IMG/VR virus record: IMGVR_UViG_3300030329_003470
Location: 132,582-196,581 of that record
Length of the DNA stretch: 64,000 bases
Strand: one strand, 5' to 3'
Source: a virus
The position numbers were made by a program, and so were the translations under genes. Shown in pieces: positions 3,480 to 55,224 of this stretch. How positions within the stretch are numbered: position 1 is the first letter of the stretch; each line of letters begins with the position of its first letter. The notes below the pieces were generated by a model. That model did no database searches and had not been told where the DNA came from. It saw nothing but the letters and a program-made list of their open reading frames with translations.

Positions 3480-4354
3480 TTATTACCAAATAAGTCCACG
3501 TGTAATCTTGGCGAATACTTATAACCATGTTGCATTGCCAAGTCAGCAACTTGTTTTGATGTTTTTGCTTGTCCTTCTACTGTTGCACCCACCGCCATTA
3601 GGTAAATGTCTGCTTCAACACCTGCTTTTTTATATTCTTCTCTTGCCATTTCTACTTCTTCAATATCTTGTTCGTCTTGCACAACAAATTTAAAATATAA
3701 ATGACTGTTTGGTATGTTTGAATATTGGTAAGCAACGTCTGGTTTAATTGCTTTTGCCCAATGTTCTCCTGATATTGATAATTTTGGTGATGAAGACCAA
3801 GTTACGTGTACTGGAGTTTTAGTATAATCACCTGCTACTAATCCTTGTAAAAATCTTTGAAAGTCTGCTTTGAATAATTGTGTTAAATTAGTTTCAATAG
3901 TTAAATTTTTTAAATCTGTAAATTCTGGTTGTCTTAATAATTGTTGTGTTTCTCTTTGCCACAACATTGGTTCACCACCTGTTATAATAAAATGTATGTC
4001 TGAACCGTTATCGTTAGTCCATTTATTGTTTGGTGTGTATGTTTTTACTTTTTCTGCAATTTCTTCTATGCTATCCCAAGAAACTAAATGTTTGTATCTG
4101 TTTGCCCAACTGGCACTTGCATCACAACCTATTTCTACTACTGGTAAATCTCTCACGTGTTTGATGCCTGATAAATCTTGTGTGTTATATGGCATCTCTT
4201 CTGGTTTGAGCCATTTACTTTTATCTCTGCCTTGTCCAAACCCGTGACAGTTAAAGTTACAACCAAACACTCTAAAGAATACACTAGGTACACCTACAAA
4301 ACGTCCTTCGCCTTGTACACTGTAAAATATTTCTGAGTATCTTAGTTTTTCCAT
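3467..4354 (-). CDS. queE: 7-carboxy-7-deazaguanine synthase (radical SAM)
   Basis: YSEIFYSVQGEG, FFRVFGCNFNC...GCD, ITGGEP, SSSPKL, SPRLHVDLFGN signature. Confidence 0.92.
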   Translation of the reverse strand: MEKLRYSEIFYSVQGEGRFVGVPSVFFRVFGCNFNCHGFGQGRDKSKWLKPEEMPYNTQDLSGIKHVRDLPVVEIGCDASASWANRYKHLVSWDSIEEIAEKVKTYTPNNKWTNDNGSDIHFIITGGEPMLWQRETQQLLRQPEFTDLKNLTIETNLTQLFKADFQRFLQGLVAGDYTKTPVHVTWSSSPKLSISGEHWAKAIKPDVAYQYSNIPNSHLYFKFVVQDEQDIEEVEMAREEYKKAGVEADIYLMAVGATVEGQAKTSKQVADLAMQHGYKYSPRLHVDLFGNKWGT

Positions 4355-4506
4355 ATTTCTGGTGCTATTGCTTTTGTTGCCTCTACTAGTTCTTTTATTG
4401 TATACTGACTTTTAGGTTCCGTCAACTGAACCCAACGTATTTGGTTATTTTCTATGATTACTTTCCAATTACCGTCTGGAGATATGTTATTTTCTTGCTT
4501 TGTCAT
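4342..4506 (-). CDS. Small hypothetical protein (54 aa, MTKQENNISPDGNW...)
   Basis: Manual translation; overlaps both neighbours. Confidence 0.5.
   Translation of the reverse strand: MTKQENNISPDGNWKVIIENNQIRWVQLTEPKSQYTIKELVEATKAIAPEIWKN
4397..4425 (-). promoter_or_regulatory. sigma70-type promoter upstream of queE
   Basis: TTGACG-N17-TACAAT on minus strand. Confidence 0.7.
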
Positions 4507-4885
4507 TTTTTTTGTCCAGTCTTACTACATTACTTGACTTTAAATGACCCACTGATTCTCTGATTATATCGTTGTGTCTGAATTCCGCCCAATATAACTC
4601 AAATGCAACACCTGACTCTATTCCTTCAAAGGAATGATATAGTCCTGGTTTAACTGCTGTGAAGTCACCGGCTTTAAGTATAGTTTCGTCTACTAGATCG
4701 TAGTCTTTTTGCCATACACGGATTTTCATCTCGCCTTCCATTACGTAGAAACCATTCCATTTCCATTCGTGTTTGTGTTTAGAACACACACCACCTTTTA
4801 CGAAATCTATTCTATGAAACTCACAAGAACTGTTTGCTAGAATAAGTTCTGTCTGTCCCCAAATTTTTCCTGCTTTGTTTCCCAT
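4487..4885 (-). CDS. Cupin-fold protein (sugar isomerase-like)
   Basis: CSKHKHEWK...GEM and GLYHSF cupin metal motifs. Confidence 0.8.
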   Translation of the reverse strand: MGNKAGKIWGQTELILANSSCEFHRIDFVKGGVCSKHKHEWKWNGFYVMEGEMKIRVWQKDYDLVDETILKAGDFTAVKPGLYHSFEGIESGVAFELYWAEFRHNDIIRESVGHLKSSNVVRLDKKNDKARK

Positions 4886-4897
4886 AATGTATTTTTA

Positions 4898-4926
4898 ATT
4901 ATACTTTTATTTAGATGATTTGTCAA
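4898..4926 (-). promoter_or_regulatory. Consensus sigma70 promoter upstream of cupin
   Basis: Perfect TTGACA-N17-TATAAT. Confidence 0.85.
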
Positions 4927-4949
4927 TGGGGGAGAAAAAATCTCCCCCA
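4927..4949 (-). terminator. GC-rich hairpin after yhhQ (terminator or stabilising stem)
   Basis: Perfect 9-bp inverted repeat TGGGGGAGA-N5-TCTCCCCCA just after stop; no clear U tract. Confidence 0.55.
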
Positions 4950-4955
4950 AATGCT

Positions 4956-5606
4956 CTATTTGATATTTTTGTATTTTGCTTGTAGTCTATTGAGTAAAAT
5001 ACCATATGCTGGTAAGAACACAATTAATCCAACTACAATTTTAGTCAGTGTATTATTCTGTGCAACAACGTGCCAGTTTGCACCAATCCATGATAGGTTG
5101 CCTTCAGCATCTAATGATCCTGCAAATGCAACGTAAAAGAATGAATAGGTATCAATTATGTTTGCCGCAATAGTTGAGATTGCCGGTGCCGCCCACCATG
5201 CCTTTGACTTCTCTCTGATTGCTTGGAAAACGTACACGTCAAGCATAGTACCAATTGCATAAGCAGTACCACTTGCAAATCCTACTCTGTATGCGTGTGG
5301 GTCACCTAATGCTAACAGTACAAGTACTGATGCTACGATTGCCGGAATGATTGCCATTGCAACAACGGCTCTTCCTGCTTCTTTTCCGACCATTCTAACT
5401 GTTAAGTCAGTTGCTACTACAACAATCGGAAATGTAAACGCCGCCGCCGCTAGTGGGAATGATCCAAATAATGGAAGTTCTGCACCGGGAAATAAATCGA
5501 ATCTGATTGTTACTAGATAATTTGATAAAGCAATTACTGCCGTATGTAAAATAACTAGATTTCTAACAAGTGTTCTATCGACACCTGCCATTATTGATTT
5601 TAACAT
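4956..5606 (-). CDS. yhhQ: Queuosine precursor (preQ0/preQ1) transporter, YhhQ/VUT family
   Basis: Multi-TM; ALSNYLV, FTFPIVVVATDLTVR..G, DVYVFQ, NIIDTYSFF motifs; AAGGAGG SD. Confidence 0.88.
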   Translation of the reverse strand: MLKSIMAGVDRTLVRNLVILHTAVIALSNYLVTIRFDLFPGAELPLFGSFPLAAAAFTFPIVVVATDLTVRMVGKEAGRAVVAMAIIPAIVASVLVLLALGDPHAYRVGFASGTAYAIGTMLDVYVFQAIREKSKAWWAAPAISTIAANIIDTYSFFYVAFAGSLDAEGNLSWIGANWHVVAQNNTLTKIVVGLIVFLPAYGILLNRLQAKYKNIK

Positions 5607-15156: not shown

Positions 15157-15690
15157 TTATGAGTCGCTTTTTAAAAAGTTTAACATTGTATCAGCATCTG
15201 ATACTTTGAACGGATCGTCATCATCACTAGCATCGTTCTTGCCTTCTTCAACAAATTGTTTAACAACTTCGCCGTTGTCAACAAGCATTGAATATCTCCA
15301 AGATCTTGTACCAAAACCTTGCTTAGGTTTATTCACAAGCATACCCATACCTTGTGTGAATGCACCTTCGCCATCACCTATAGGTTTGACCTTTTTAATG
15401 TTCTCATCTCTGAACCAAGCATTCATTACAAATGAATCATTCACTGACAAACAATATACTTCGTCAACACCTTGTGCTTTGATTTCGTCATATTTTGCTT
15501 CGTAACCCGGTACTTGTTGTGAAGAACAAGTTGGTGTAAATGCACCTGGAAGTGCAAACACAACAACTTTCTTACCTGAGAAAATTTCTTCTGTATCAAC
15601 ATCTTTCCATTCGCCACCAATAAATGTACATCCACCTACTGCATCAGTATCGCCAACTCTTGTTCTAAAAGTTGTATATGGTACTTTCAT
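15157..15690 (-). CDS. Peroxiredoxin (Prx5-like)
   Basis: [31 protein letters not shown]. Confidence 0.92.
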
Positions 15691-20208: not shown

Positions 20209-22872
20209 TTAAAATTCAAACAGTTTATTAAATGTATTGCTGGTCTCAGTTGATTGAATATCCCATTCTAATACACCAATTAAATTTTCTATTTTTTGAT
20301 CCAATATAGTTTGTTCCATAGCATCTGAATCAAATGGAAGATCTTTAAACCAATCTGGAATACGCAATTCATCTGTAGGATATGCAATACTTGTATAGTT
20401 TAATGGATTGTTTTTAAGTTTACACACAATTACTTTTGCACCATCTGTAATTGGCAATGAATATTTGTCACCATACATAGTTTTACAGTTATTCCAATTA
20501 ATACTTGCTCTAACGTGTCCAGGCATATTTGCTTTGCCTTGTTTCTTTTCTTTCTCCCAATATTCCGTAACATTGTTTGCTCTTTTTGGAGATCCTTTTT
20601 CCCAACCCGGTCTTGCTTTAAATTCTGCTCTAAAATCTGTAATTGCTTGTAACACTTCTTTTTCTGTTTTACCTGTTAGCACCATATACAATATATCACT
20701 TAAAAAGTCTTGTACAAAAACTGGAGTATCAGATCTTTTTAAATCTAACCCCATGGCTTTCATTTTACCTTCTTTGCCTGCAATATCTGTACGAGTTCCT
20801 TCGACATCATAATACAATACTGCATATCTTTTCTTTGTAATAAACAAACCTTTTGATGCAACAAGTTCTCTACCTGCTTTAATAACAGAACCTCTTGTAC
20901 TTGGACAATGAAATGCTTTAGTCATGAATCCAGTAAAAGATGTATTAACTTCTTCTGCAATTTTATCATATAATGCAATAACACTTTCTTTATTCCACGG
21001 AATTTGCCCACTTTCTATTTCTTTTGCAAGTGTTTTATGTGCTGTAAAATAAACGGAATCTGTATCTCCATAAACAACTGATTCTCCTCGGTGATCATAT
21101 TTGCCTGCAATAACTTCATTTATTTTGGCTCCCATATGTTTTGTAATACATCTACCTGTTAATGTAACAGATTGTCCTATTCTAATATCAAAAAATCTAC
21201 AACCTGGATTTAAAATTGCACCATATAAACTGTTCAAGTTAATTTTTTTAACAAGTTGTCTTTTATCCCAATATTCTTTTTCAATTTCATTATCGCCAGC
21301 ATCATGCATTTTACGTTGCATTTCTTTTCTTTCTGCATACCAACGTTTTAATAAGCCTGGAATAATTGCTTCAAACTCATATGTGAATATAGTACCATTT
21401 GCACTTAACATCCATTTATTTTTACCATCAAATATTACATCATAAAGTTGTGCCGCTGACATTCTAACACTTGTTCCGTCTGCCCAATCAACAACAACTT
21501 CTGTTGCTTTATCTTCTTTCATAACTGCTTGATATTCCCAACTACCAAATTGATTATCCCAAGCCGCCGCAAATGATTTTTTCTGCGACCTTGCTCTGTT
21601 TACTTCTGCAGATGTTATAATTGGCCTTATTTGTCCTACAATAGTTTCTGGCCCCATATTCAATGCTCTAATTACACTTGGATACAGTGAGTTGATATCA
21701 ACAGATCCTATCCAGTCATGTATACCTTTTTGCGGAGTTGCCACATAAGCACCTGCCGCCGTGACTGGTTCAGCATCTTTTTCTCTGTATTTCCTACCAG
21801 GCACAATCATACCTCTTCTATGTGCTTCGTTAACGATTGCTTGTTCTGTTACTGCAACTGCACCCATTGTCGTTTGTAGCAACACAGTGTTTTGGTGTGC
21901 AATCTCATTGGCAAGTTCTATAAATTTTAATTTCTTTTCTAGTTTAGCGAGTAGATTTGTATCTTGTCTGTTGTATTCTACAAACAAACCAAAGTCATTT
22001 TTATAAAGTGCATCAAGTGAGCCTTCGTATACAGTTTTCTTTTCTCCTAGTTCATGTTCACCAATTGCATCTAGTCTAAAACTATGACGTTCTTCATATG
22101 TGTACTTTCTATATAATTCTAATAAGTCTAAGTGTACTCTACCAATTAAATCATAACTTAAATGTTCTTTTCCATATTTTTCAAATACTCTCTTTTTAGG
22201 TTTTTCTCCCCAAAAACACAAACGTCTTGTATCATCTGAACTCATTGTTTTTTGTATTCTTCCTACTGTGTATGGAATATCATATCCTTCTGAGTTCCAA
22301 CCTGAGATAATATCTGCATCTTCAACTACTTGTAAAAATGCATCAAGCATATCTTTTTCTTTTTCAAATAACAATGTGTTTGGAAAACGTTCTGTTAAAA
22401 CTTTTGCATCTTGCATACTTAAAGTTTTTGGAGGAACTGCAAATGTAATTAATTGATCCGTCCAACCCATATAACAACTTATGGCAGTTATGGGCATGAA
22501 CGGATCATCTGTTGTGGCATAACCCTTTTCAGGATCAAAATCCACTTCAATATCAAAAAACAGTACGTTTAACTTGGGAGTTTCTTTACCTAAATAATTC
22601 TCCTCAAGGCATCTAAACACTGGATTGATATCTTGTTCATAAAGAGTTTTGTTGGACCTTATCCTCTGCTCTTTTATGAATTCTTTTGATGTAGCACACG
22701 TAACTTTTTGTAGTGTTTCACCTGTAATGCTTCTGTGTTTGCCTCTTGAATCTGGATAATAGAATACATACCTTGCATCATATTCTACAAACACACGACC
22801 TTTTTTAGGATCACGTTCTACTACATAAATTTTGTCTTCGTCTTTTTTATATAAGGCGTCTATATAACTCAT
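20209..22872 (-). CDS. Family B DNA polymerase with 3'-5' exonuclease
   Basis: FDIEVD, NSEGYDIPY, YNRQD; DINSLYPS, KINLNSLYG, YGDTDS. Confidence 0.97.
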   Translation of the reverse strand: MSYIDALYKKDEDKIYVVERDPKKGRVFVEYDARYVFYYPDSRGKHRSITGETLQKVTCATSKEFIKEQRIRSNKTLYEQDINPVFRCLEENYLGKETPKLNVLFFDIEVDFDPEKGYATTDDPFMPITAISCYMGWTDQLITFAVPPKTLSMQDAKVLTERFPNTLLFEKEKDMLDAFLQVVEDADIISGWNSEGYDIPYTVGRIQKTMSSDDTRRLCFWGEKPKKRVFEKYGKEHLSYDLIGRVHLDLLELYRKYTYEERHSFRLDAIGEHELGEKKTVYEGSLDALYKNDFGLFVEYNRQDTNLLAKLEKKLKFIELANEIAHQNTVLLQTTMGAVAVTEQAIVNEAHRRGMIVPGRKYREKDAEPVTAAGAYVATPQKGIHDWIGSVDINSLYPSVIRALNMGPETIVGQIRPIITSAEVNRARSQKKSFAAAWDNQFGSWEYQAVMKEDKATEVVVDWADGTSVRMSAAQLYDVIFDGKNKWMLSANGTIFTYEFEAIIPGLLKRWYAERKEMQRKMHDAGDNEIEKEYWDKRQLVKKINLNSLYGAILNPGCRFFDIRIGQSVTLTGRCITKHMGAKINEVIAGKYDHRGESVVYGDTDSVYFTAHKTLAKEIESGQIPWNKESVIALYDKIAEEVNTSFTGFMTKAFHCPSTRGSVIKAGRELVASKGLFITKKRYAVLYYDVEGTRTDIAGKEGKMKAMGLDLKRSDTPVFVQDFLSDILYMVLTGKTEKEVLQAITDFRAEFKARPGWEKGSPKRANNVTEYWEKEKKQGKANMPGHVRASINWNNCKTMYGDKYSLPITDGAKVIVCKLKNNPLNYTSIAYPTDELRIPDWFKDLPFDSDAMEQTILDQKIENLIGVLEWDIQSTETSNTFNKLFEF

Positions 22873-40281: not shown

Positions 40282-40930
40282 TTTTTACCTTTACAAATTT
40301 TATAACTTTGTCTATTCCTTTTTGTGCCAACATATAGATAGGAGTTAGCATTTTTTGTTCACTGACATAAAAGTATCCGTGATAGCAGTGTGGATACTTT
40401 CCTATTAGATAATCTAATACATATTTGTTTGATACTAAACAATCATTCTCGTTTCTTTCCAAATATGCCCAAAGACTTTCTCTTTCTTGTTGTGATATCT
40501 GCTGATGCACATCTTTTTTAAAATGCACTTGATATTGGAATCTACCGTGTGGCAATCTATGACAACCTACTGTATTTTTTCCTAATTTGTTAAATTTAGG
40601 ATCTACAGTTTCAGAATTGTACCAATCATCCCAAAATGTTTCTATTAATAATTCTGATAAATTTTTATCAGAGTAAAAAATTGCATATTTTTGTTGTAAT
40701 CTAAATTTCATTTTTGTTCTATGCTCTAGGATAAACTTTGCCAGTTTAATTACAGAAGGTGATGATTTATACCATGTTGTATTAAGGTACCTTACACTTT
40801 TATCTTTGCCTTGTATCATTTCTAAGAGTTTTTGATCTGTGGTTGGATATAAAATACCTGCCCATGGCATTTTAAAGACGTTTTTAAAACGGTACTTGCC
40901 GTAGTAAAGTTTATTATGATGTTTTCGCAT
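40250..40930 (-). CDS. Hypothetical protein
   Basis: ORF track. Confidence 0.7.
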   Translation of the reverse strand: MRKHHNKLYYGKYRFKNVFKMPWAGILYPTTDQKLLEMIQGKDKSVRYLNTTWYKSSPSVIKLAKFILEHRTKMKFRLQQKYAIFYSDKNLSELLIETFWDDWYNSETVDPKFNKLGKNTVGCHRLPHGRFQYQVHFKKDVHQQISQQERESLWAYLERNENDCLVSNKYVLDYLIGKYPHCYHGYFYVSEQKMLTPIYMLAQKGIDKVIKFVKVKNAGNKKVKRT

Positions 40931-43250
40931 CTTTTTCTTTTACAGGTTCAATAATTTTTTTCGCTTTAAATTCTACAGTAAGTTTTGGTACAGTATCATC
41001 TGATAACCCTACTTCAACCATACCACCTTCTGTTAGTTCTCCAAACAGTATCATTTTAGATAATGGCTTTTTAATTTCGTCGTCAATTACTCTTTGTAAC
41101 GGTCTTGCTCCTAATTTAGCATCAAATCCTTTTTTAATTAACCATTCAATTGCTTCGTCAGTAGCATTAACTTCAACATTTTTCTCTACTGTCATTGTGT
41201 TTAATTCTAATAAGAATTTCTTAACAATAGATTTCATTGTGTCTTTGCCTAGTTTGTCAAATTTAATTGTTGCATCTAGTCTATTTCTAAATTCTGGTGG
41301 GAAAAACTTTTTCATTGCGGCATCGTCTTCGCCTATTCTTTCGTGTGATCCAAAACCAATATTATTTCTTTCCATTGCTTCTGCACCTAAATTAGAAGTC
41401 ATAATAAGTGTAATGTTTCTACAGTCTGCTTTTTTACCGTTAGATCCTGTTACTGTACCATAGTCCATAACTTGTAGCAACATATTAGATACATCACGAT
41501 GTGCTTTTTCTACTTCATCAAATAGTACAACTGCGTGTGGATTTTTTTCTACTTCGTTTATAAACATACCACCACCCATTGTAGTATCTTCAAATCCTAC
41601 ATAACCCGGAGGTGATCCTATTAATTTTGCAATAGAATGTTTTTCTTGATACTCTGACATATCAAATCTTAACAGTTCAACACCTAAAGTTTTTGCTAAT
41701 TGTCTTGCAGTTTCAGTTTTACCACAACCAGTAGGTCCTAAAAATAAAAATGATCCAACAGGTTTGTTTAATGATTTCAATCCTGCTCTTGCAACTAATA
41801 TTTTATCTACAATAGTGTTAATTGCTTTGTCTTGCCCAAACACTTGTAATTTCATTTTCTCTTCTAATGTTTTTAAATTACTTGCTTGTTTTTGAGATAA
41901 TTGTTCAATTGATATTCCAGTCATTTTAGAAATTTCATGTATAATTTCTTCATGATCTATTTTACCATCTTTAACTGCATTTAATCTTAATCTTGCACAG
42001 GCAACGTCCATAACATCAATTGCTTTGTCAGGTAATTTTTTATCTGCTATAAACTTCGCTGAATATTCTACTGCATCTTCACAAGCCTCATCTGTAATTG
42101 TACACTTATGAAACTTCTCATAGTATTGTTTTACACCTTTTAGTATTTTTGTTGCAGTTTCTTTAGTAGGTTCTCCAATCTGGAGCCTTTGAAATCTTCT
42201 CATTAATGCTCTGTCTTTTTCAAAGAATTTTCTGTATTCTTCCCAAGTAGTTGAAGCAATAACTTTAATTGTACCTTTTAGTAGTGCAGGTTTAATCATG
42301 TTTGCCATATCCATACTGTTACCACCACCAGTAGCACCAGCACCAACCATCATGTGTGCTTCGTCAATAAACAATATTGATTTGCCTTTTTGGTCTAATG
42401 CATTTACAATTAGTTTTAATCTTTCTTCAAAATCACCTCTAAATTTAGATCCAGCAATTAAGGCATTTACATCTAAACTCCAAACAATATGATCTCTAAT
42501 GTATTCTGGTACATCTTCTTTGTTTTTTGCAATTCTTCTAGCAAGTCCTTCCACAACTGCTGTCTTACCAACACCTGGATCGCCTACTATTAATACATTG
42601 TTCTTGTTTCTTCTTGCAAGTATCTGTTTTAATTCGTTTGTTTCTTCATCTCTGCCTATAACAGGATCAATTTTTTTATCAAAATATTTTTGATTTAAAT
42701 TTTCACAATAACTTCTTAATATTCTATCTGCTTGGTTAGGTCTTAGTTTTTGTTCTGATTGTGGTTGGCCACCTATAGGTGCTAATCCTGCCATGCCTTC
42801 ATCAAGTATAGTTTCAGTAGAAACAAGATCTATTAAATCTTGTTTGTTTACATTGTATTTTTTTAAGAAAAATGCCGCATAACTTTTCTTTTCAGAAAAT
42901 ATACTGATTAATATATCAATAGCACTTACGTCTTGTCTACCTTGAAATAGTGCTTGAGTAAATGCTCTATTCATTAATCTTTCTAAAGATGCAGTTTTTC
43001 TAGGAACAACTTTATCTTTACCACTTGCAACTATATCATTACATTTTGTATCTAAATAATCTTCAACATCTTTAATTAACATACCAACATTAATTTTAAA
43101 ATCAACTAGTGTAGCACCAATCATCTTGTCTTTAATTAATGAAAGTAAAACGTGTTCTATTGTAACGTACTCGTGTTTTCTTTTTTCTGCTTCGCTAACT
43201 GCGTTTTCGAATATGTTTTCTAGGCTTTCGTTTGCTTCTAACATCTCCAC
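40914..43250 (-). CDS. clpA: ATP-dependent Clp protease ATP-binding subunit
   Basis: Clp-N (HEYVTIEH), GDPGVGKT and GPTGCGKT Walker A, IGF loop (NNIGFG), GARPL; no ClpB middle domain. Confidence 0.93.
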   Translation of the reverse strand: MEMLEANESLENIFENAVSEAEKRKHEYVTIEHVLLSLIKDKMIGATLVDFKINVGMLIKDVEDYLDTKCNDIVASGKDKVVPRKTASLERLMNRAFTQALFQGRQDVSAIDILISIFSEKKSYAAFFLKKYNVNKQDLIDLVSTETILDEGMAGLAPIGGQPQSEQKLRPNQADRILRSYCENLNQKYFDKKIDPVIGRDEETNELKQILARRNKNNVLIVGDPGVGKTAVVEGLARRIAKNKEDVPEYIRDHIVWSLDVNALIAGSKFRGDFEERLKLIVNALDQKGKSILFIDEAHMMVGAGATGGGNSMDMANMIKPALLKGTIKVIASTTWEEYRKFFEKDRALMRRFQRLQIGEPTKETATKILKGVKQYYEKFHKCTITDEACEDAVEYSAKFIADKKLPDKAIDVMDVACARLRLNAVKDGKIDHEEIIHEISKMTGISIEQLSQKQASNLKTLEEKMKLQVFGQDKAINTIVDKILVARAGLKSLNKPVGSFLFLGPTGCGKTETARQLAKTLGVELLRFDMSEYQEKHSIAKLIGSPPGYVGFEDTTMGGGMFINEVEKNPHAVVLFDEVEKAHRDVSNMLLQVMDYGTVTGSNGKKADCRNITLIMTSNLGAEAMERNNIGFGSHERIGEDDAAMKKFFPPEFRNRLDATIKFDKLGKDTMKSIVKKFLLELNTMTVEKNVEVNATDEAIEWLIKKGFDAKLGARPLQRVIDDEIKKPLSKMILFGELTEGGMVEVGLSDDTVPKLTVEFKAKKIIEPVKEKDAKTS

Positions 43251-48748: not shown

Positions 48749-49018
48749 TTATTTGATGAACGGATCAATGGATTGTTTGTAATAATTGTAGAAATAGTTG
48801 TATATCTTTTCATACGATAATATTTGATCTTGCTTAACTCCTGGTATTTCACATTTAATAACAGTTTTGTTTACCAAGTCTAATACTATTCCTGCTCCTG
48901 CTCTTTTACCTGGACCAACTTTCTTTCTAGTTAATTCAACTAGTTCGTCATATTTTCCTTGACTGTTAATACTGTATTTTACAAGTAGAAATCTTTTTTT
49001 GTTGTGCTTACTGCCCAT
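48749..49018 (-). CDS. Hypothetical protein
   Basis: ORF track. Confidence 0.6.
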   Translation of the reverse strand: MGSKHNKKRFLLVKYSINSQGKYDELVELTRKKVGPGKRAGAGIVLDLVNKTVIKCEIPGVKQDQILSYEKIYNYFYNYYKQSIDPFIK

Positions 49019-49937
49019 TTGATAATCTTGCCAGTTTAATCATCGTTGCCGCCAAGTTTATTTCTGGATCAGCCATAGCAGGATGATCAACTAGTCCTTG
49101 TTTTATAATTAAAACTGCTTTGTCTTGTTGATCCTCGTCTTTAGATATTAAATCTAGATTGTTGTATAACCATCTGTATATGCCTTCACACTCTTGAGGA
49201 TTTGCTTTTGATACTACAAGTTTTCTTGCTTCATTAACTTTACCTTGTTTGAAAAGTTCAACCATTTTTGACATCCAATCTAATTGCATACTTTCCTCAG
49301 CCGCTGGTGGAAGTAATTTACTGTCTTTTACGTTTTGTTGTACTGCATTAATACATTTTCTTAAATCAGGATAACATGATCTAACATACGTATCTACAGT
49401 ATCAATATCAATTTCAACTTTTTCAGCAACTAGTATTTCAGCAACTCTTGCCGTGTATTCTGTTTTGTCAAGAGTATCCATTTTAAATCCTTGACATCTG
49501 CTTTTTATTGCTTCAATAATTTTATGCACATAGTTACAAGTTAAAATAAATCTTGCACTACTGGCATATTCTTCCATAACTCCACGTAATGCCGCTTGAG
49601 CATTTACACTCATATAATCTGCTTCATCAAGTAAAACATATTTGAATTCACCAAATGGCATTATTTGTATAAATCTTGTAATTTTATCTCTAACTTCATC
49701 AACACCTGTTTCTCTGGCCGCATTTATATGAAGTATATCATAACTGCTTACTTCTAATTCATTCAGCAAAACTTTAGCAAGTGTAGTTTTTCCTGTACCT
49801 GGAGATCCATGAAATAATAAATGTGGAATTGATTTTTCTTTTACCCAAGTTTCAATTTGTTTTTTTTGCGTTTCGTCACGAACCACATATTCTTTTACTG
49901 TGTTTGGTCTATATTTTTCTACCCAAAGTTCTTTCAT
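49008..49937 (-). CDS. Clamp loader AAA+ subunit (gp44/RFC small subunit-like)
   Basis: WVEKYRP, GSPGTGKT, LLDEAD, AQAALR, IKSRC. Confidence 0.93.
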   Translation of the reverse strand: MKELWVEKYRPNTVKEYVVRDETQKKQIETWVKEKSIPHLLFHGSPGTGKTTLAKVLLNELEVSSYDILHINAARETGVDEVRDKITRFIQIMPFGEFKYVLLDEADYMSVNAQAALRGVMEEYASSARFILTCNYVHKIIEAIKSRCQGFKMDTLDKTEYTARVAEILVAEKVEIDIDTVDTYVRSCYPDLRKCINAVQQNVKDSKLLPPAAEESMQLDWMSKMVELFKQGKVNEARKLVVSKANPQECEGIYRWLYNNLDLISKDEDQQDKAVLIIKQGLVDHPAMADPEINLAATMIKLARLSNGQ

Positions 49938-50071
49938 TAGTAATGACCCTTCATTTTAGCATATGCAATCCCGATTAATACAAACACAACAATTAATAAT
50001 GCTGGTAATATAACAACCGGGTGCATTCTTTCAGATAATGGAACTTCTTTTTTTTTATCTTTTTGTTCCAT
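49937..50071 (-). CDS. Small single-TM protein (44 aa)
   Basis: Start refined to ATG 50071 after fdh stop. Confidence 0.55.
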   Translation of the reverse strand: MEQKDKKKEVPLSERMHPVVILPALLIVVFVLIGIAYAKMKGHY

Positions 50072-50072
50072 A

Positions 50073-51269
50073 TTATTTCTTATACTTCGCCGCCTCTTCA
50101 GATCCTCCAGTAGCAGTACCTTTACTGTAACTGTGAGCACCCATACCTGCAAGTTCGCCGTTCTGCACAATTAGATATTGATTTCTAATTGGTGCGTTGT
50201 CAAAGAAACATTCTAATATTTCTCTAACACCGTCAGCATACCTTGCCTGTGCTGATAAAGATGTTCCTGATGTGTGAGGAGTCATACCATGATTCGGCAT
50301 TGTTCTCCAAACGTGATCATTTGGTGCTGGTTGTGGGAACCAAACGTCTCCTGCATAGCCAGATAGTTGTCCACTTTTTAATGCATCAGCAATGGCTTCT
50401 CTATTACAGATTTTGCCTCTTGCAGTATTAACAATGTAAGCACCTTTTTTCATCTTGCTTATCATTTCTGCATCAAATAAGTTTTCTGTCTCTGGGTGTA
50501 GTGGACAGTTGATTGTTACAACATCACACACTTTAACCATAGATTCTACTGACTCATGAAAAGTAAGATTTAACTCTTGCTCTACTGCTTCGGGTAGTCT
50601 GTGTCTGTCAAAGTAATGTAAATGTACATCAAATGGTTTCATTTTTCTCAAAGCATCTAAGCCAATACGTCCAGCCGCAACTGTACCTATGTGCATACCT
50701 TCAACGTCATATGATCTTTGTACTGCGTCAGCAATATTCCAACCACCTTCGTTAACTATTCTATGTTGATTGTGATAATCTCTCACCATAGAAACAATCA
50801 TCATAACAATGTGTTCTGCAACTGATCTTGAATTACAATAAGTTACTTCAACAACATCAATTTTGTTGTCCATAGCCGCTTGTAAGTCCACGTGATCAGA
50901 TCCAATACCTGCCGTGATTGCCATTTTTAGGTTTTTTGCTTTTTCAATTCTTTCTCTTGTCAAATAATAAGGGAAAAAAGGTTGAGAAATAACAACGTCT
51001 GCGTCAACAATATGTTTGTCTGCTTCACATTCGTCACCATCTTTACTAGAAGTCACAACGAGTTCATGTCCTGCGTCTTCTAAGAACTTTCTAAGTCCAA
51101 GTTCTCCAGATACACAACCTAACAATTCACCTGCATTAAAATCTCTGCCTTTAGGTGAAGGTAATGTCATACCATCTGGATACTTTTCTAACTTAGGTAA
51201 ATCCGTAAGTGGATAAGACTCAGGCATTCCGCCTTTTGGGTCATCGTATAAAATACAAAGTATTTTCAT
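50073..51269 (-). CDS. fdh: NAD-dependent formate dehydrogenase
   Basis: GCVSGELGLR, ISQPF, AGIGSDHVD, SVAEH, AAGRIG, YFDRH, NTARG, WFPQP, PHTSG; full length; AGGAG SD. Confidence 0.95.
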   Translation of the reverse strand: MKILCILYDDPKGGMPESYPLTDLPKLEKYPDGMTLPSPKGRDFNAGELLGCVSGELGLRKFLEDAGHELVVTSSKDGDECEADKHIVDADVVISQPFFPYYLTRERIEKAKNLKMAITAGIGSDHVDLQAAMDNKIDVVEVTYCNSRSVAEHIVMMIVSMVRDYHNQHRIVNEGGWNIADAVQRSYDVEGMHIGTVAAGRIGLDALRKMKPFDVHLHYFDRHRLPEAVEQELNLTFHESVESMVKVCDVVTINCPLHPETENLFDAEMISKMKKGAYIVNTARGKICNREAIADALKSGQLSGYAGDVWFPQPAPNDHVWRTMPNHGMTPHTSGTSLSAQARYADGVREILECFFDNAPIRNQYLIVQNGELAGMGAHSYSKGTATGGSEEAAKYKK

Positions 51270-51293
51270 TTGTGTCTCCTGTTAGTGTAGCAA

Positions 51294-52334
51294 TTATATG
51301 ATATTTGATTCTCTTTGTCTATATAATTGTTCTGCGGCAAGATTTTTAGATTTGGCTTCTACTTGTATGTCAAATTGTTCATTGAACGACAATGCCCAAT
51401 CATTTACCTTTGCGTTTGGTAATAAGTCTGAATGTGCTCTAAGTTTTTGTTTTTTACAACCTCTGTCTAGTAAATCTTTGATGTTGTGCATTTCTGTATG
51501 TGTTTTGTTACCCAACTGTGCAGGTGCAAGTGCTTCATCTCGAGAATAAGAATAATGCATGGTAGGTCTAACACCACGCCACGAGTCTACAACTCTTTTA
51601 ACTCTGTCATCATTAGGCTCAATGTATTCCTCATCACGTATCCAATGATGGTGTATGTCCATAACAAGTGCAAGATGTTTTTCTAGTTCTAAACTTGCAT
51701 CTAATCCATGTCCCATTTCGTCGTTCTCGATTGTAATAAGATTTCTTGCTTCAGGTGATAGTCTAGGTAATACTTTTATAATACCTTCTGGTCCTTGTCT
51801 GCCTGAGATGTGTACATTAATCTTGCAACCGTCTTGGAATGATTTACCAAAACCCATCCAACGTGCCATGTTAACATGATATTCAAATTCATCTATGCTA
51901 CGATCTACAATGTCTGGAGTCTCAGATGCAAGTACAGTAAATTGTCCTGGGTGGAAAGATATTTTTACATCTAGTTTACGAGCAAGATCGCCCACTTCTG
52001 CAAAATGTTTTTCACAATAACGTACAATGTCTGGAGAGTCTATATAATAACGCCAAGTTTTTTCTGTTGCCATAGGTAGTACGGGAGATCCTAGTCTGCA
52101 CATTCTACGGTCTAGTGGTAGTGTACCTACTTTTGCAACAAGTTTTTTAAGTGATTCAATATTGTGTTTAACAACCATATCAAGTTTTGCTTCTGCTTGA
52201 TCTTTGTGTTCGTTTAACCAACGAACTGTGGTTGCTTTTGTGTTAAAAGGTCTTTGTATTTCTTCTAATTGTTTTGTTTTTAGTGTCTGATCATGATGAT
52301 ACCACTGACAGCAAAATCCTATACGTTTGTGCAT
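51294..52334 (-). CDS. uvsE: UV damage endonuclease (UvsE/UvdE)
   Basis: RIGFCC, SFHPGQF, INVH, IENDE, DIHHH, AHSD, VEAKSK. Confidence 0.9.
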   Translation of the reverse strand: MHKRIGFCCQWYHHDQTLKTKQLEEIQRPFNTKATTVRWLNEHKDQAEAKLDMVVKHNIESLKKLVAKVGTLPLDRRMCRLGSPVLPMATEKTWRYYIDSPDIVRYCEKHFAEVGDLARKLDVKISFHPGQFTVLASETPDIVDRSIDEFEYHVNMARWMGFGKSFQDGCKINVHISGRQGPEGIIKVLPRLSPEARNLITIENDEMGHGLDASLELEKHLALVMDIHHHWIRDEEYIEPNDDRVKRVVDSWRGVRPTMHYSYSRDEALAPAQLGNKTHTEMHNIKDLLDRGCKKQKLRAHSDLLPNAKVNDWALSFNEQFDIQVEAKSKNLAAEQLYRQRESNII

Positions 52335-52983: not shown

Positions 52984-53839
52984 TTTCTTTTAATAATAAA
53001 TTTGCTAAACCGTAAATGCTTTTATAATCCTGTGAATGTGCCGCTAAAATTATATTGCCTGGTCTAAGATTTAAACTTGTACATATTTCATGATGTTTTA
53101 TTTTATATTTTGTAATTAGATAGTCCATAGGTAATCTATCTAAATAATATTGTCCTATCATTAAATTAGGAAATGATATCATTCTATTTTCGTTCTGATG
53201 TGCAATTGAATCTTTAGTTTTATTTTTTAACCATCTTACACCGATTCTGCTCCAATGTAAACCAAAACATTTACTTAAACTCATAGCCATTCCTTTTATA
53301 CATGGTTGGTCTAAATCTAAAGTTAATCCATAAGACGCAGGTAACCATGCACAATCTAAATATACATCTATGTCTAGTTCGTTACATTTTTTTATTATAT
53401 CTTTATAAAGAGGGTGTTCTCCAAGATATTTTGGAAATGGATATTCTAATATAAGTGGTTTTTTAGATTGTAATGTATCTAAAGTTACATATTTGATATT
53501 TGGATTTATTTTTTTGTAATAATTATATCCTTTGTCAAACAGTTGTATATTGTCTATACCGTGTGTCATTATAAGTTCGTCTATAAAATGTTGGCATCCT
53601 ATAATAACGTCTTTTTGATTAAAAAGATCTAAACCTGATATATTCATAGACTTGTTTTCTTTTATTGATTTTTCAAATGTTGCAATAAAGTCTTGATAAT
53701 TTGCTGTAATGTATTTTAAAGTTTCGTTATTGAAGTTTTTAAAAAAATCTAATCTAATTTCTAATAATTTTTTGTCATTAGATAGTGGTGGTATCCAGTC
53801 GTGGCTTAAATCTTTTATGTTAAAAATTTGTTTAGTCAT
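52976..53839 (-). CDS. PLP-dependent transferase-like protein (divergent)
   Basis: YLDCAW, SLSKCFG, RIG pattern of fold-type I PLP enzymes. Confidence 0.5.
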   Translation of the reverse strand: MTKQIFNIKDLSHDWIPPLSNDKKLLEIRLDFFKNFNNETLKYITANYQDFIATFEKSIKENKSMNISGLDLFNQKDVIIGCQHFIDELIMTHGIDNIQLFDKGYNYYKKINPNIKYVTLDTLQSKKPLILEYPFPKYLGEHPLYKDIIKKCNELDIDVYLDCAWLPASYGLTLDLDQPCIKGMAMSLSKCFGLHWSRIGVRWLKNKTKDSIAHQNENRMISFPNLMIGQYYLDRLPMDYLITKYKIKHHEICTSLNLRPGNIILAAHSQDYKSIYGLANLLLKENG

Positions 53840-54275
53840 TGCCGGGTAGTTTAGTCATCTGCTCCATACCACCAGTGTTGACATACCCAGCCTGTTTTCT
53901 ATTTTGCTCTGGTTCGGTTTCTGATACAAGTAAGATATCATTCTCATCTATCATTCTTACTTCTAATTCAACACCGTCTTTTTTAACTTTGAATGCTCTA
54001 GACCATCTACCATGTGAAACTAATATCCATTCTCCAACTTTAACATCATCTTGTTTATTTCCAATAGCATATACTTTTGCCCATCTAGGATGGATACCTG
54101 ATTGTGATCCATCGTCATCTACAAGTATAATACCGCCTTTAGATCTTGTTTCACCAAAGTGCATATCAGATACAAGCACTCTTTTTTTAAGTGGAGTAAT
54201 ATCGTTATCAACAGTGTATTGTTTACCACCGTGTGATCCAAAACCTTTATTCTGTAGATCTTCTATTTGTCCCAT
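53832..54275 (-). CDS. groES: GroES/Cpn10-like co-chaperonin
   Basis: PLKKRVLV, SKGGIIL, VYAIG, VKVGEWIL. Confidence 0.8.
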   Translation of the reverse strand: MGQIEDLQNKGFGSHGGKQYTVDNDITPLKKRVLVSDMHFGETRSKGGIILVDDDGSQSGIHPRWAKVYAIGNKQDDVKVGEWILVSHGRWSRAFKVKKDGVELEVRMIDENDILLVSETEPEQNRKQAGYVNTGGMEQMTKLPGND

Positions 54276-54702: not shown

Positions 54703-55224
54703 TCATCTTAAAAATTCAGTGTAATCTAAATTGTATAGTAGTGGATTTATTTTATGTACACCTATTAAAAATAAACAAAAACTTGCTACACTACTACCTC
54801 TGCCCACACCCCATACTACATTATTCTCTCTTAAAGTATCTACAAAATATATTAAAAACTGTAAAACCCTAATAAAGTTTTTCTTTTCAAATAGATCATA
54901 TTCATTTTGCACACGTATTTTTTCCTCATCTGTTTGACACTTTTCTAATAACCATTGTAACACATTAATTTTATAATATTTTCCAGGCATATGCCATTGT
55001 TCACAATTTCTTTTGTCAAACTCTGCTGGTGTAGGTCTTCGTGGTATAGTCTTTAACATTGGAAAATCTAAACCAGTTGCATTTAGACTATCGTTATATT
55101 TTTGAATATCATCAAAAAATATTTTAGAAATGTCAAAATCTGGATTGTTATAAAGAATATCTATTGCATCTTGTTCTGTAAAAATGCAATCACCTGTCTC
55201 ATTTATTTTTGTCTTTGCCACCAT
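54703..55224 (-). CDS. DnaE (Pol III alpha)-like fragment
   Basis: WGVGRGSSVASFCLFLIGVHKINPL..NL...EFL; stops before PDID motif. Confidence 0.75.
   Translation of the reverse strand: MVAKTKINETGDCIFTEQDAIDILYNNPDFDISKIFFDDIQKYNDSLNATGLDFPMLKTIPRRPTPAEFDKRNCEQWHMPGKYYKINVLQWLLEKCQTDEEKIRVQNEYDLFEKKNFIRVLQFLIYFVDTLRENNVVWGVGRGSSVASFCLFLIGVHKINPLLYNLDYTEFLR

What the first reader, a model, noticed from the sequence alone, without database searches (positions are those of the whole stretch)
50073..51269. Full-length NAD-dependent formate dehydrogenase in a phage replication region
Seen: a 398-aa FDH with intact substrate and NAD-specific (YFDRH) motifs and an AGGAG SD, lying between uvsE and the clamp loader with phage genes on both sides, so contamination is unlikely. 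Established: this metal-independent FDH oxidises formate to CO2 and yields NADH in methylotrophs and some marine bacteria. I do not know it as a commonly reported phage AMG. Inference: a C1-energy auxiliary gene that also points to a C1-oxidising host.
Basis: partly seen in the sequence, partly recalled or inferred. Interest (0 to 1): 0.75.

Follow-up and report, generated by a model that had tools for sequence, protein, structure and literature searches.

The report
SAR11-derived formate dehydrogenase in ocean phages
A large uncultured ocean phage carries an intact, selectively maintained copy of the one-gene, metal-free enzyme that burns formate to CO2 and makes NADH; the gene came from SAR11 bacteria and recurs in many marine phages, so it is a real but only moderately novel host-derived metabolic gene.

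Summary
Window 50073-51269 (minus strand) encodes a 398-aa NAD+-dependent, metal-independent formate dehydrogenase (FDH). It scores 664 bits on the NCBIfam equivalog (cut-off 329), aligns end to end with solved FDH structures, and keeps every catalytic and NAD-specificity residue. It lies between UvdE and a clamp loader in a 196.6-kb T4-type phage record whose polymerase is nearest jumbo phages. It is not a chimera: nine independent IMG/VR contigs share the synteny and exact DNA contigs bridge both junctions.

The closest cellular relatives are Pelagibacteraceae (SAR11) at 91-93%. At least 102 IMG/VR contigs carry relatives, in eight or more phage gene contexts, including HTVC008M-type pelagimyophages. 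The tree shows three or more phage clades among SAR11 sequences, and an AU test rejects a single clade (p 0.006). dN/dS is 0.03-0.04. The gene is accessory in this lineage (5 of 74 relatives) and has a conserved sigma70-type promoter. Exact-match metatranscriptome contigs cover it.

Most likely it supplies NADH from formate during infection. No cultured phage has it, and one 2020 paper mentions an FDH in one pelagimyophage. Verdict: new member of a known kind.

The parts
50073..51269 (-). NAD+-dependent, metal-independent formate dehydrogenase CDS (398 aa, protein P0001)
   Evidence: ORF. NCBIfam NF005750 664 bits against cut-off 329. Pfam 2-Hacid_dh and 2-Hacid_dh_C. PDB 2gsd and 2nac E about 1e-190 to 1e-197 over the full length. 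Catalytic residues intact.
51276..51280 (-). Shine-Dalgarno AGGAG, 6 nt before the ATG; part of an invariant CTAACAGGAGA block in context-A relatives
   Evidence: Sequence; alignment A1.
51293..51321 (-). Sigma70-type promoter-like site TAGACA-17-TATAAT (11 of 12). The -10 box overlaps the UvdE stop codon. The -35 is invariant and the -10 is conserved in 7 relatives.
   Evidence: Consensus scan; alignment. RNA-library contigs are deeper over the FDH than over UvdE (suggestive only).
51294..52334 (-). Upstream neighbour: UV damage endonuclease UvdE (346 aa)
   Evidence: Pfam PF03851, E 6.6e-35.
49937..50071 (-). 44-aa predicted single-pass membrane peptide between the FDH and the clamp loader. 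Its stop overlaps the clamp-loader ATG (TAATG). A related peptide sits at the same place in the FDH-less closest relative, L230.
   Evidence: Translation and comparison.
49008..49937 (-). Downstream neighbour: AAA+ clamp-loader subunit (309 aa). The slot upstream of it is a hyperplastic insertion site in this phage lineage.
   Evidence: Pfam AAA and DNA_pol3_delta2; 80 relatives compared.

Best explanation
The gene is a working, host-derived auxiliary metabolic gene. It encodes the single-subunit, cofactor-free NAD+-dependent formate dehydrogenase (EC 1.17.1.9), captured from SAR11 (Pelagibacterales) as a bare coding sequence. It was inserted into a hyperplastic slot between UvdE and the clamp loader of a large T4-type marine myovirus.

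It is probably transcribed from its own sigma70-type promoter by host RNA polymerase. In the infected cell it would catalyse formate + NAD+ -> CO2 + NADH. That is the last step of SAR11's tetrahydrofolate-linked C1 oxidation. The step keeps or raises the supply of NADH, and through respiration ATP, and through transhydrogenase reducing power for nucleotide synthesis, while host gene expression declines.

Shown here: identity, integrity, phage location, SAR11 origin, recurrence, purifying selection and accessory status. Inferred: promoter use, timing, NADH as the benefit, and SAR11 as this phage's host.
For: - Identity: the equivalog HMM scores 664 bits against a cut-off of 329. The protein aligns gaplessly over its full length to solved FDHs 2gsd, 3fn4 and 2nac.
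- Active site: P97, F98, I122, N146, R284, D308, Q313, H332, AxGxxG 198-203 and D221 are invariant in 74 phage and 130 SAR11 sequences. The roles of N146, R284 and H332 are given in PMC13440586.
- Phage location: T4-type polymerase, baseplate, UvdE and clamp loader surround it. Nine syntenic contigs exist in other metagenomes. Exact DNA contigs bridge both junctions.
- Origin: 80 of the 80 best genome hits are Pelagibacteraceae at 91-93%. The FDH was found in 169 of 301 sampled Pelagibacterales genomes but in only 9 of 400 other genomes of the class, at 77% or less. In the tree the window clade nests inside SAR11.
- Selection: against syntenic phages, aa identity is 96-97.5%, nt identity 89%, dS 0.55-0.69 and dN/dS 0.03-0.04. 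GC3 has shifted toward each phage's own composition.
- Recurrence: at least 102 IMG/VR contigs carry it, in 8 or more phage contexts, for example between the small and large terminase genes and between NrdA-NifU and NrdB. None shares SAR11 flanking genes. The AU test rejects a single phage clade, p 0.0065.
- Expression: a conserved promoter and SD. Zero-mismatch contigs from two metatranscriptome libraries tile the FDH, while the clamp loader is almost uncovered at flat DNA depth.
- Pathway context: SAR11 oxidises C1 units to CO2 through formate for energy (PMC3160333). THF-oxidation genes are upregulated in pelagiphage-infected SAR11 (PMC12753301).
Against: - No enzyme assay exists, and no cultured phage carries the gene.
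- The RNA evidence comes from assembled contigs of RNA libraries. These cannot rank genes, show transcript ends or fully exclude DNA carry-over (caveats).
- The promoter is a consensus match. The region scan found 8 sites against 6.5 expected by chance; only its conservation sets this one apart.
- The host is not independently confirmed. The GMP reductase is no closer to SAR11 than to other Alphaproteobacteria. The phage polymerase was not found in 401 Pelagibacterales genomes. The polymerase's nearest cultured relatives infect Rhizobiales.
- The gene is accessory, present in 5 of 74 relatives, so it is dispensable.
- SAR11's described formate oxidation uses the Mo-dependent enzyme, so the in-vivo role of this second FDH is itself unstudied.
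Confidence: 0.78

Rival explanations
1. The enzyme is active, but the benefit is removal of formate and pull on folate-C1 flux rather than energy. Infection raises formate production through peptide deformylase on new proteins, GTP cyclohydrolase I in the phage's deazaguanine pathway, and hydrolysis or ligase reversal of 10-formyl-THF. The FDH would keep formate low and free THF for dTMP and purine synthesis.
For: The FDH repeatedly sits among nucleotide and redox genes: NrdA-NifU-FDH-NrdB, gp41 helicase-dCMP deaminase-FDH, and peroxiredoxin-FDH-GMP reductase-DNA polymerase in L014.
Against: No FDH locus has FolE, QueD or a deformylase as an immediate neighbour. The suspected neighbours turned out to be a peroxiredoxin and proteins of unknown function. 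The reaction yields NADH either way, so this rival overlaps the main explanation and differs only in which product matters.
Confidence: 0.15
2. A neutral passenger: a recently captured host gene with no role for the phage.
For: It is accessory, present in 5 of 74 relatives at this site. Its synonymous divergence is lower than that of its flanks, so it is younger than the backbone.
Against: dS of 0.55-0.69 within the phage group and 1.6-2.2 against SAR11 means it is not recent. dN/dS is 0.03-0.04, all catalytic residues are kept in 74 phage copies, and no pseudogenes were seen among them. Acquisitions were repeated. The promoter and SD are conserved.
Confidence: 0.03
3. An assembly chimera or SAR11 contamination of a viral bin.
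For: The FDH GC (0.37-0.39) is slightly above its flanks (0.31-0.34).
Against: Nine independent contigs share the synteny. Zero-mismatch contigs from an independent DNA run cross both junctions. At least 14 DNA runs from 5 studies hold the stretch. No SAR11 flanking gene occurs in any of the 80 viral loci. The SAR11 terminator hairpin is absent.
Confidence: 0.01
4. The enzyme has been repurposed: CO2 reduction, another 2-hydroxyacid substrate, NADP+ specificity, or a non-catalytic role.
For: It belongs to the broad D-2-hydroxyacid dehydrogenase superfamily.
Against: It scores far above every other equivalog; the next best, PGDH, gets 161 bits against a cut-off of 454. The formate-specific residues and D221 are invariant. 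Only two residues (T22, A267) are fixed in the window's phage group and unseen in 130 SAR11 enzymes.
Confidence: 0.03

Closest known systems
Metal-independent NAD+-dependent formate dehydrogenases of bacteria (Pseudomonas sp. 101 FDH, PDB 2NAC/2NAD; Moraxella sp. C2 FDH, PDB 2GSD)
   Same: Same length and two-domain fold family. The alignment is gapless from residue 2 to the C-terminus, with E about 1e-190 to 1e-197. The same substrate and cofactor residues sit at the same numbers.
   Different: It is encoded by a phage. Its nearest branch is the SAR11 enzyme (91-93%), not these model enzymes. It has not been assayed.
SAR11 (Pelagibacteraceae) chromosomal single-gene FDH
   Same: 91-93% aa identity and near-identical length (398 against 399 aa). 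The window clade nests inside the SAR11 radiation.
   Different: Only the coding sequence was taken. The flanking genes differ, the host hairpin terminator is missing, and the phage copy has its own promoter and SD. nt identity is about 80-81% with dS saturated, and GC3 has drifted toward the phage's value.
'A formate dehydrogenase' reported as unique to the deep-ecotype pelagimyophage PMP-MAVG-4 (Zaragoza-Solas et al. 2020, mSystems, PMC7029224)
   Same: A myovirus assigned to SAR11 that carries an FDH together with a GMP reductase. This record also has a GMP reductase.
   Different: That paper gives one sentence, cites the Mo/selenocysteine FDH-H structure and proposes proton-gradient generation. 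Here the enzyme is the cofactor-free NAD-linked type. It is found in many lineages and contexts, and in a phage whose polymerase is nearest jumbo phages. The haem genes named there were not found in this 196.6-kb fragment. I could not obtain the PMP-MAVG-4 sequence to compare.
Classical marine phage AMGs for energy and reducing power (cyanophage psbA, talC, zwf/gnd-type genes)
   Same: A host-derived single gene placed among phage genes, under purifying selection, acting on the host's main energy or redox supply.
   Different: It acts on C1/formate oxidation in a heterotroph rather than on photosynthesis or the pentose-phosphate pathway. This comparison rests on general knowledge and was not tested here.
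SAR11 Mo-dependent formate dehydrogenase (fdhF/fdsB/fdhD with mobA/moeA; Sun et al. 2011, PMC3160333)
   Same: The same overall reaction at the end of the THF-linked C1 oxidation pathway.
   Different: An unrelated protein family: multi-subunit, needing molybdopterin and Fe-S clusters. The phage gene has no such domains. A phage can deploy the one-gene form without maturation genes (inference).

Membership tests
NAD+-dependent formate dehydrogenase, metal-independent (EC 1.17.1.9; NCBIfam NF005750) | Scores above the curated equivalog cut-off over the full length | tested here: met
   663.9 bits against cut-off 329, residues 2-384 of 398. The next family, PGDH, scores 161 bits against its cut-off of 454.
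NAD+-dependent formate dehydrogenase, metal-independent (EC 1.17.1.9; NCBIfam NF005750) | Two-domain D-2-hydroxyacid dehydrogenase architecture (catalytic domain plus Rossmann NAD-binding domain) | tested here: met
   PF00389 (60-363) and PF02826 (155-333).
NAD+-dependent formate dehydrogenase, metal-independent (EC 1.17.1.9; NCBIfam NF005750) | Formate-binding and catalytic residues Asn146, Arg284, His332 (with Gln313, Pro97, Phe98, Ile122), PseFDH numbering | tested here: met
   All are present at the same numbers and invariant in 74 phage copies. Numbering follows the 2nac alignment. Residue roles: PMC13440586.
NAD+-dependent formate dehydrogenase, metal-independent (EC 1.17.1.9; NCBIfam NF005750) | Dinucleotide fingerprint (A/G)xGxxG and acidic residue 221, which selects NAD+ over NADP+ | tested here: met
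   AAGRIG at 198-203 and D221 within YFDRH. The role of D221 is from my own knowledge of PseFDH engineering and was not found in the papers read.
NAD+-dependent formate dehydrogenase, metal-independent (EC 1.17.1.9; NCBIfam NF005750) | Formate:NAD+ oxidoreductase activity | not testable with these tools
   Needs expression and assay.
Phage auxiliary metabolic gene (host-derived metabolic gene maintained in a virus) | Lies inside a viral genome with viral genes on both sides, and is not an assembly artefact | tested here: met
Phage auxiliary metabolic gene (host-derived metabolic gene maintained in a virus) | Cellular origin traceable by phylogeny | tested here: met
   It nests within SAR11 FDHs, and the genome hits are all Pelagibacteraceae.
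Phage auxiliary metabolic gene (host-derived metabolic gene maintained in a virus) | Maintained by purifying selection in viral genomes | tested here: met
   dN/dS 0.03-0.12 in all phage comparisons. No disrupted copy was found among 74 full-length phage copies.
Phage auxiliary metabolic gene (host-derived metabolic gene maintained in a virus) | Expressed during infection and changes host metabolism | tested here: inconclusive
   Exact-match contigs from two RNA libraries cover the gene. Contigs cannot prove transcription or timing, and the metabolic effect is untested.
Molybdenum/tungsten formate dehydrogenase (FdhF/FDH-H type, the type cited for the pelagimyophage FDH in PMC7029224) | Molybdopterin oxidoreductase and Fe-S domains | tested here: not met
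   Only 2-Hacid_dh domains were found.
HTVC008M-type pelagimyophage (for the window's phage itself) | Core replication and structural genes closest to Pelagibacter phage HTVC008M, Mosig or Melnitz | tested here: not met
   The window's DNA polymerase is closest to Sinorhizobium phage Phosso (49.6%) and Agrobacterium phage Atu_ph07 (45.6%), both jumbo phages. In contrast, the FDH-bearing context-E contigs have a TerL 69% identical to HTVC008M. Only one gene was tested for the window phage.

The most novel reading that the evidence does not exclude
Formate oxidation is a general, repeatedly selected lever of phage takeover in SAR11. At least three separate captures of the one-gene FDH spread through several myovirus lineages, including a roughly 350-kb jumbo-type phage that would then be a giant virus of one of the smallest free-living cells. 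Virus-encoded FDH would carry out a measurable share of formate-to-CO2 oxidation in the surface ocean. The younger-than-backbone FDH allele in the window's group would mark an ongoing sweep by recombination between co-infecting phages.
Probability: 0.25. Interest if true: 0.7.

Novelty: new member of a known kind. Interest (0 to 1): 0.5.

Why it matters
SAR11 is the most abundant heterotroph in the sea, and C1 oxidation is one of its energy sources. A phage gene for the last step means infection may redirect, rather than just stop, that carbon-to-CO2 flux.

The finding gives three practical things:
- A host marker for many uncultured myovirus contigs, including a jumbo-type lineage with no known host.
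- A correction to the only published mention: the enzyme is the NAD-linked, cofactor-free type, not a Mo enzyme that builds a proton gradient.
- A warning that part of the 'SAR11 FDH' signal in metagenomes and metatranscriptomes is viral. Viral and cellular alleles are 75-93% identical in protein.

It also offers a clean natural experiment for testing the value of an AMG: the same backbone occurs with and without the FDH, and there were several independent captures. Lastly, these are naturally diverse variants of an enzyme widely used for NADH regeneration.

Tried and rejected
- **GenBank/INPHARED phages, protein search.** No true orthologue. The 49% hits are in unannotated 'Staphylococcus phage SA 1306/1298 Kay' records of up to 209 kb that look like host DNA, so they were rejected as precedent.
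- **Megablast of 13 kb around the gene against phages.** No match.
- **Are the roughly 40 IMG/VR loci without window homologues misbinned SAR11 fragments?** No. None shares a SAR11 flanking gene, and their neighbours are terminase, tail sheath, NrdAB and gp41.
- **Does the FDH move as a cassette with flanking repeats or regulatory DNA?** No. No cross-context similarity was found in 250 nt on either side.
- **Is the FDH adjacent to a formate-releasing enzyme (FolE, QueD)?** No. The candidates are a peroxiredoxin and proteins of unknown function.
- **Is the record the same type as PMP-MAVG-4, through its haem genes?** hemF and hemC were not found in this fragment. A GMP reductase is present.
- **Independent host evidence.** The GMP reductase is 49-50% identical to some SAR11 genomes against 52-54% to other Alphaproteobacteria, so it is uninformative. 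The phage DNA polymerase was not found in 401 Pelagibacterales genomes, which is also uninformative.
- **Most divergent Pelagibacterales FDH hits.** They are truncated at contig ends or are pseudogenes, so they were not used in the tree.
- **Parts without RNA-contig cover** are not taken as evidence of silence.
- **Not run.** Structure prediction and fold search, because solved structures at about 70% identity exist.

Full report
**1. Observation**

The ORF is real. Window 50073-51269 on the minus strand reads as 398 codons from ATG to TAA. AGGAG lies 6 nt before the start.

Pfam finds the two domains of D-2-hydroxyacid dehydrogenases. The NCBIfam equivalog for NAD-dependent formate dehydrogenase (NF005750) scores 664 bits against a cut-off of 329. 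Every other equivalog of the superfamily stays far below its own cut-off. The protein aligns without gaps from residue 2 to the C-terminus with the solved FDHs of Moraxella (2gsd) and Pseudomonas sp. 101 (2nac), at E about 1e-190 to 1e-197.

Because the 2nac alignment runs 2-393 to 2-393, query numbering equals PseFDH numbering. P97, F98, I122, N146, R284, D308, Q313, H332, the AAGRIG loop (198-203) and D221 inside YFDRH are all present. The substrate-binding roles of N146, R284 and H332 are described in PMC13440586.

The neighbours are UvdE (51294-52334) and an AAA+ clamp loader (49008-49937). A 44-aa membrane peptide sits between the FDH and the clamp loader.

**2. The phage**

The window is the last 64 kb of a 196,581-bp linear IMG/VR record that CheckV rates 55% complete. 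It encodes a T4-type DNA polymerase, baseplate wedge proteins and a ClpA-like protease.

The polymerase's nearest cultured relatives are jumbo phages: Sinorhizobium phage Phosso (469 kb, 49.6%), Agrobacterium phage Atu_ph07 (490 kb, 45.6%), and then 350-380-kb enterobacterial jumbo phages. Earlier notes of this scan on the same record also call it a giant phage with a T4-type head.

**3. Not an artefact**

- Nine other IMG/VR contigs from other metagenomes have the same UvdE-FDH-clamp loader order.
- The junction-spanning 2 kb is held nearly intact by at least 14 marine DNA runs from five studies.
- In run X9, zero-mismatch contigs cross both junctions: 49896-50229 and 50900-51900.

**4. Origin**

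The 80 best hits among 185,579 species genomes are all Pelagibacteraceae, at 91-93% identity. The FDH was found in 169 of 301 sampled Pelagibacterales genomes, at 84-92%. It was found in only 9 of 400 other genomes of the same class, at 77% or less.

I built a maximum-likelihood tree of 116 sequences. All phage FDHs group with SAR11 FDHs, apart from the other alphaproteobacterial enzymes. The window and its syntenic relatives, plus L008, form a clade sister to a 19-member SAR11 clade and nested within further SAR11 branches. This favours transfer from host to phage.

**5. Recurrence**

IMG/VR holds at least 102 contigs with relatives at 75-98% identity, and the 80 fetched come from about 75 different metagenome identifiers. 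None shares a single flanking gene with the SAR11 chromosomal locus.

Clustering the flanking proteins gives at least eight recurring contexts. All of them are phage modules:

- A: UvdE-FDH-clamp loader.
- E: head completion/tail sheath stabiliser-denV-small terminase-FDH-x-large terminase-tail sheath (18 loci).
- F: NrdA-NifU-FDH-NrdB.
- D: gp41 helicase-dCMP deaminase-x-FDH.
- Others: L014 has peroxiredoxin-FDH-GMP reductase-polymerase.

The context-E terminase is 69% identical to Pelagibacter phage HTVC008M, followed by Mosig and Melnitz. True pelagimyophage relatives therefore carry the gene too. The cultured isolates do not.

In the tree the phage sequences fall into at least three clades:

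- The window clade.
- A context-F clade, sister (96) to SAR11 L207/L209.
- A 56-member phage-only clade (99) that spans contexts B to H.

Forcing all phage sequences into one clade costs 69.9 log-likelihood units and is rejected (p-AU 0.0065).

No non-coding flank is shared between contexts. The SAR11 copy's hairpin terminator is absent from the phage copies. Only the coding sequence moved, and each copy has a local RBS.

**6. Selection and age**

Against its syntenic relatives, the window FDH is 96-97.5% identical in protein but only 88.6-89.8% in DNA. dS is 0.55-0.69 and dN/dS 0.03-0.04. Against SAR11, dS is 1.6-2.2. Against other phage clades, dN/dS is 0.07-0.12.

GC3 is 0.25 in the window, 0.35 in the GC-richer relatives and 0.17-0.20 in SAR11. 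The gene has drifted toward each phage's own composition.

Only two residues (T22, A267) are fixed in the window's group and unseen in 130 SAR11 enzymes. There is no sign of a changed function.

Within the conserved synteny, every flanking gene is far more diverged than the FDH: 64-90% aa identity and pS 0.51-0.91 (all but one gene at 0.57 or higher), against pS 0.39-0.45 for the FDH. The FDH allele is therefore younger than the backbone. This fits spread by recombination among related phages, or unusually strong codon-level constraint. I cannot separate the two.

**7. Accessory status**

I fetched 80 relatives through the clamp loader. Of these, 74 have at least 2.6 kb upstream:

- 60 have neither UvdE nor FDH there.
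- 9 have UvdE only.
- 5 have both.

The closest relative, L230 (clamp loader 96% identical), lacks the FDH. The slot carries other small cargo in different relatives, with no FDH remnants.

**8. Expression signals**

A near-consensus sigma70-type site (TAGACA-17-TATAAT, 11 of 12) lies at 51321-51293 on the coding strand. Its -10 box overlaps the UvdE stop codon. The -35 hexamer, the -10 box and a CTAACAGGAGA block are conserved in seven relatives whose flanking genes are saturated at synonymous sites.

In two metatranscriptome libraries, from samples whose DNA runs also hold the phage, zero-mismatch contigs tile 50049-51298 and more thinly part of UvdE. The clamp loader is almost bare, although DNA depth is flat at about 45. 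This is consistent with transcription from that promoter. Contigs cannot prove it or rank genes.

**9. Mechanism**

- **Established:** the enzyme oxidises formate to CO2 and reduces NAD+.
- **Established for SAR11:** methyl groups and other C1 units are oxidised through THF intermediates to formate and CO2 for energy (Sun et al. 2011). That paper attributes the last step to the multi-subunit Mo enzyme. The single-gene enzyme studied here is a second, widespread SAR11 FDH.
- **Inference:** a phage can deploy only the one-gene, cofactor-free form without maturation genes. Expressed early, it would keep NADH flowing from formate while host expression fades, and so feed respiration and reductant-hungry nucleotide synthesis. 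The recurring placement next to RNR, NifU, peroxiredoxin and GMP reductase genes fits a reductant-supply role but does not prove it.
- **Overlapping rival:** formate clearance and THF recycling may be the benefit that matters.

**10. Prior knowledge and novelty**

Full-text searches found one relevant precedent. Zaragoza-Solas et al. 2020 list 'a formate dehydrogenase' among genes unique to one deep-ecotype pelagimyophage MAG. They cite the Mo/Sec FDH-H structure and suggest proton-gradient generation. The Citromicrobium phage 'FDH' is an Fdn-N beta-subunit-like protein and is unrelated.

The kind of thing, a host-derived AMG and even an FDH in a pelagimyophage, is therefore known. What appears to be new:

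- The enzyme type.
- Its breadth across myovirus lineages and insertion sites.
- Several independent captures.
- Strong purifying selection.
- A dedicated promoter.
- Its presence in a jumbo-type lineage.

**11. Weak points**

- There is no biochemical or culture evidence.
- SAR11 as this phage's host rests on the FDH alone, since two independent tests were uninformative.
- The tree used the quick search and a subsample of SAR11 diversity.
- The position of the 56-member clade relative to the SAR11 subclades is unresolved.

Noticed in passing
window 49938-51293 and loci L230-L260 (about 4000-5000 in each locus): The slot just upstream of the clamp loader is a hyperplastic insertion site. Relatives carry nothing, UvdE alone, UvdE plus FDH, or other small cargo. 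That cargo includes a recurring 72-aa ORF (MKEYKL...VGRFRNV...), a 218-aa ORF in L235 and a 54-aa coiled-coil ORF after the FDH in L001, L002 and L004.
   Followed up: partly
window 49937-50071 (-): A 44-aa predicted single-pass membrane peptide (MEQKDKKKEVPLSERMHPVV...) is translationally coupled to the clamp loader (TAATG). A related 46-aa peptide sits at the same place in L230.
   Followed up: partly
L230 against window 49008-52334: Mosaicism: the clamp loader of L230 is 96% identical to the window's, but its UvdE next door is only 68%. L009 has a UvdE at 87%.
   Followed up: no
window 20209-22872 (-): The T4-type DNA polymerase is closest to jumbo phages of Rhizobiales (Phosso 49.6%, Atu_ph07 45.6%) rather than to cultured pelagimyophages or cyanophages. 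This suggests an uncultured marine branch of that jumbo group.
   Followed up: partly
window 40914-43250, 53832-54275, 15157-15690, 54703-55224 (all -): Other host-like functions in the window: a 778-aa ClpA-like ATP-dependent protease (phrog_4871, 829 bits), a GroES/Cpn10-like protein, a peroxiredoxin (Redoxin/AhpC-TSA), and a 173-aa fragment matching the DNA pol III alpha NTPase domain.
   Followed up: no
L225 (G270:C2:43527-44729) and L223 (G170:C6:69773-70675): Two Pelagibacterales genomes carry decayed FDH genes: one at 67% identity with 7 in-frame stops, one with 2 TAA. The host gene is being lost in some SAR11 lineages.
   Followed up: no
GenBank records OR845000.1, OR849882.1, OR844991-OR844994 (hits H1, H2, H6, H14, H16): Unannotated 'Staphylococcus phage SA 1306/1298 Kay' records (up to 209 kb), and similar Listeria, Salmonella and Enterococcus 'phage' records, carry FDH, serA or pdxB-like host genes. 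They look like host contigs filed as phage.
   Followed up: no
L051-L072 (context F), e.g. L072:7008-7412: A NifU-like Fe-S assembly gene sits between nrdA and the FDH, ahead of nrdB, in several marine myovirus contigs. L051 and L054 have two NifU-like copies flanking the FDH.
   Followed up: no
L039-L065 (context E), e.g. L040:3540-4112: In HTVC008M-type contigs the FDH is wedged between the small and large terminase genes. A denV-type endonuclease V lies just upstream, so a UV-repair gene is again the neighbour, as UvdE is in the window.
   Followed up: no
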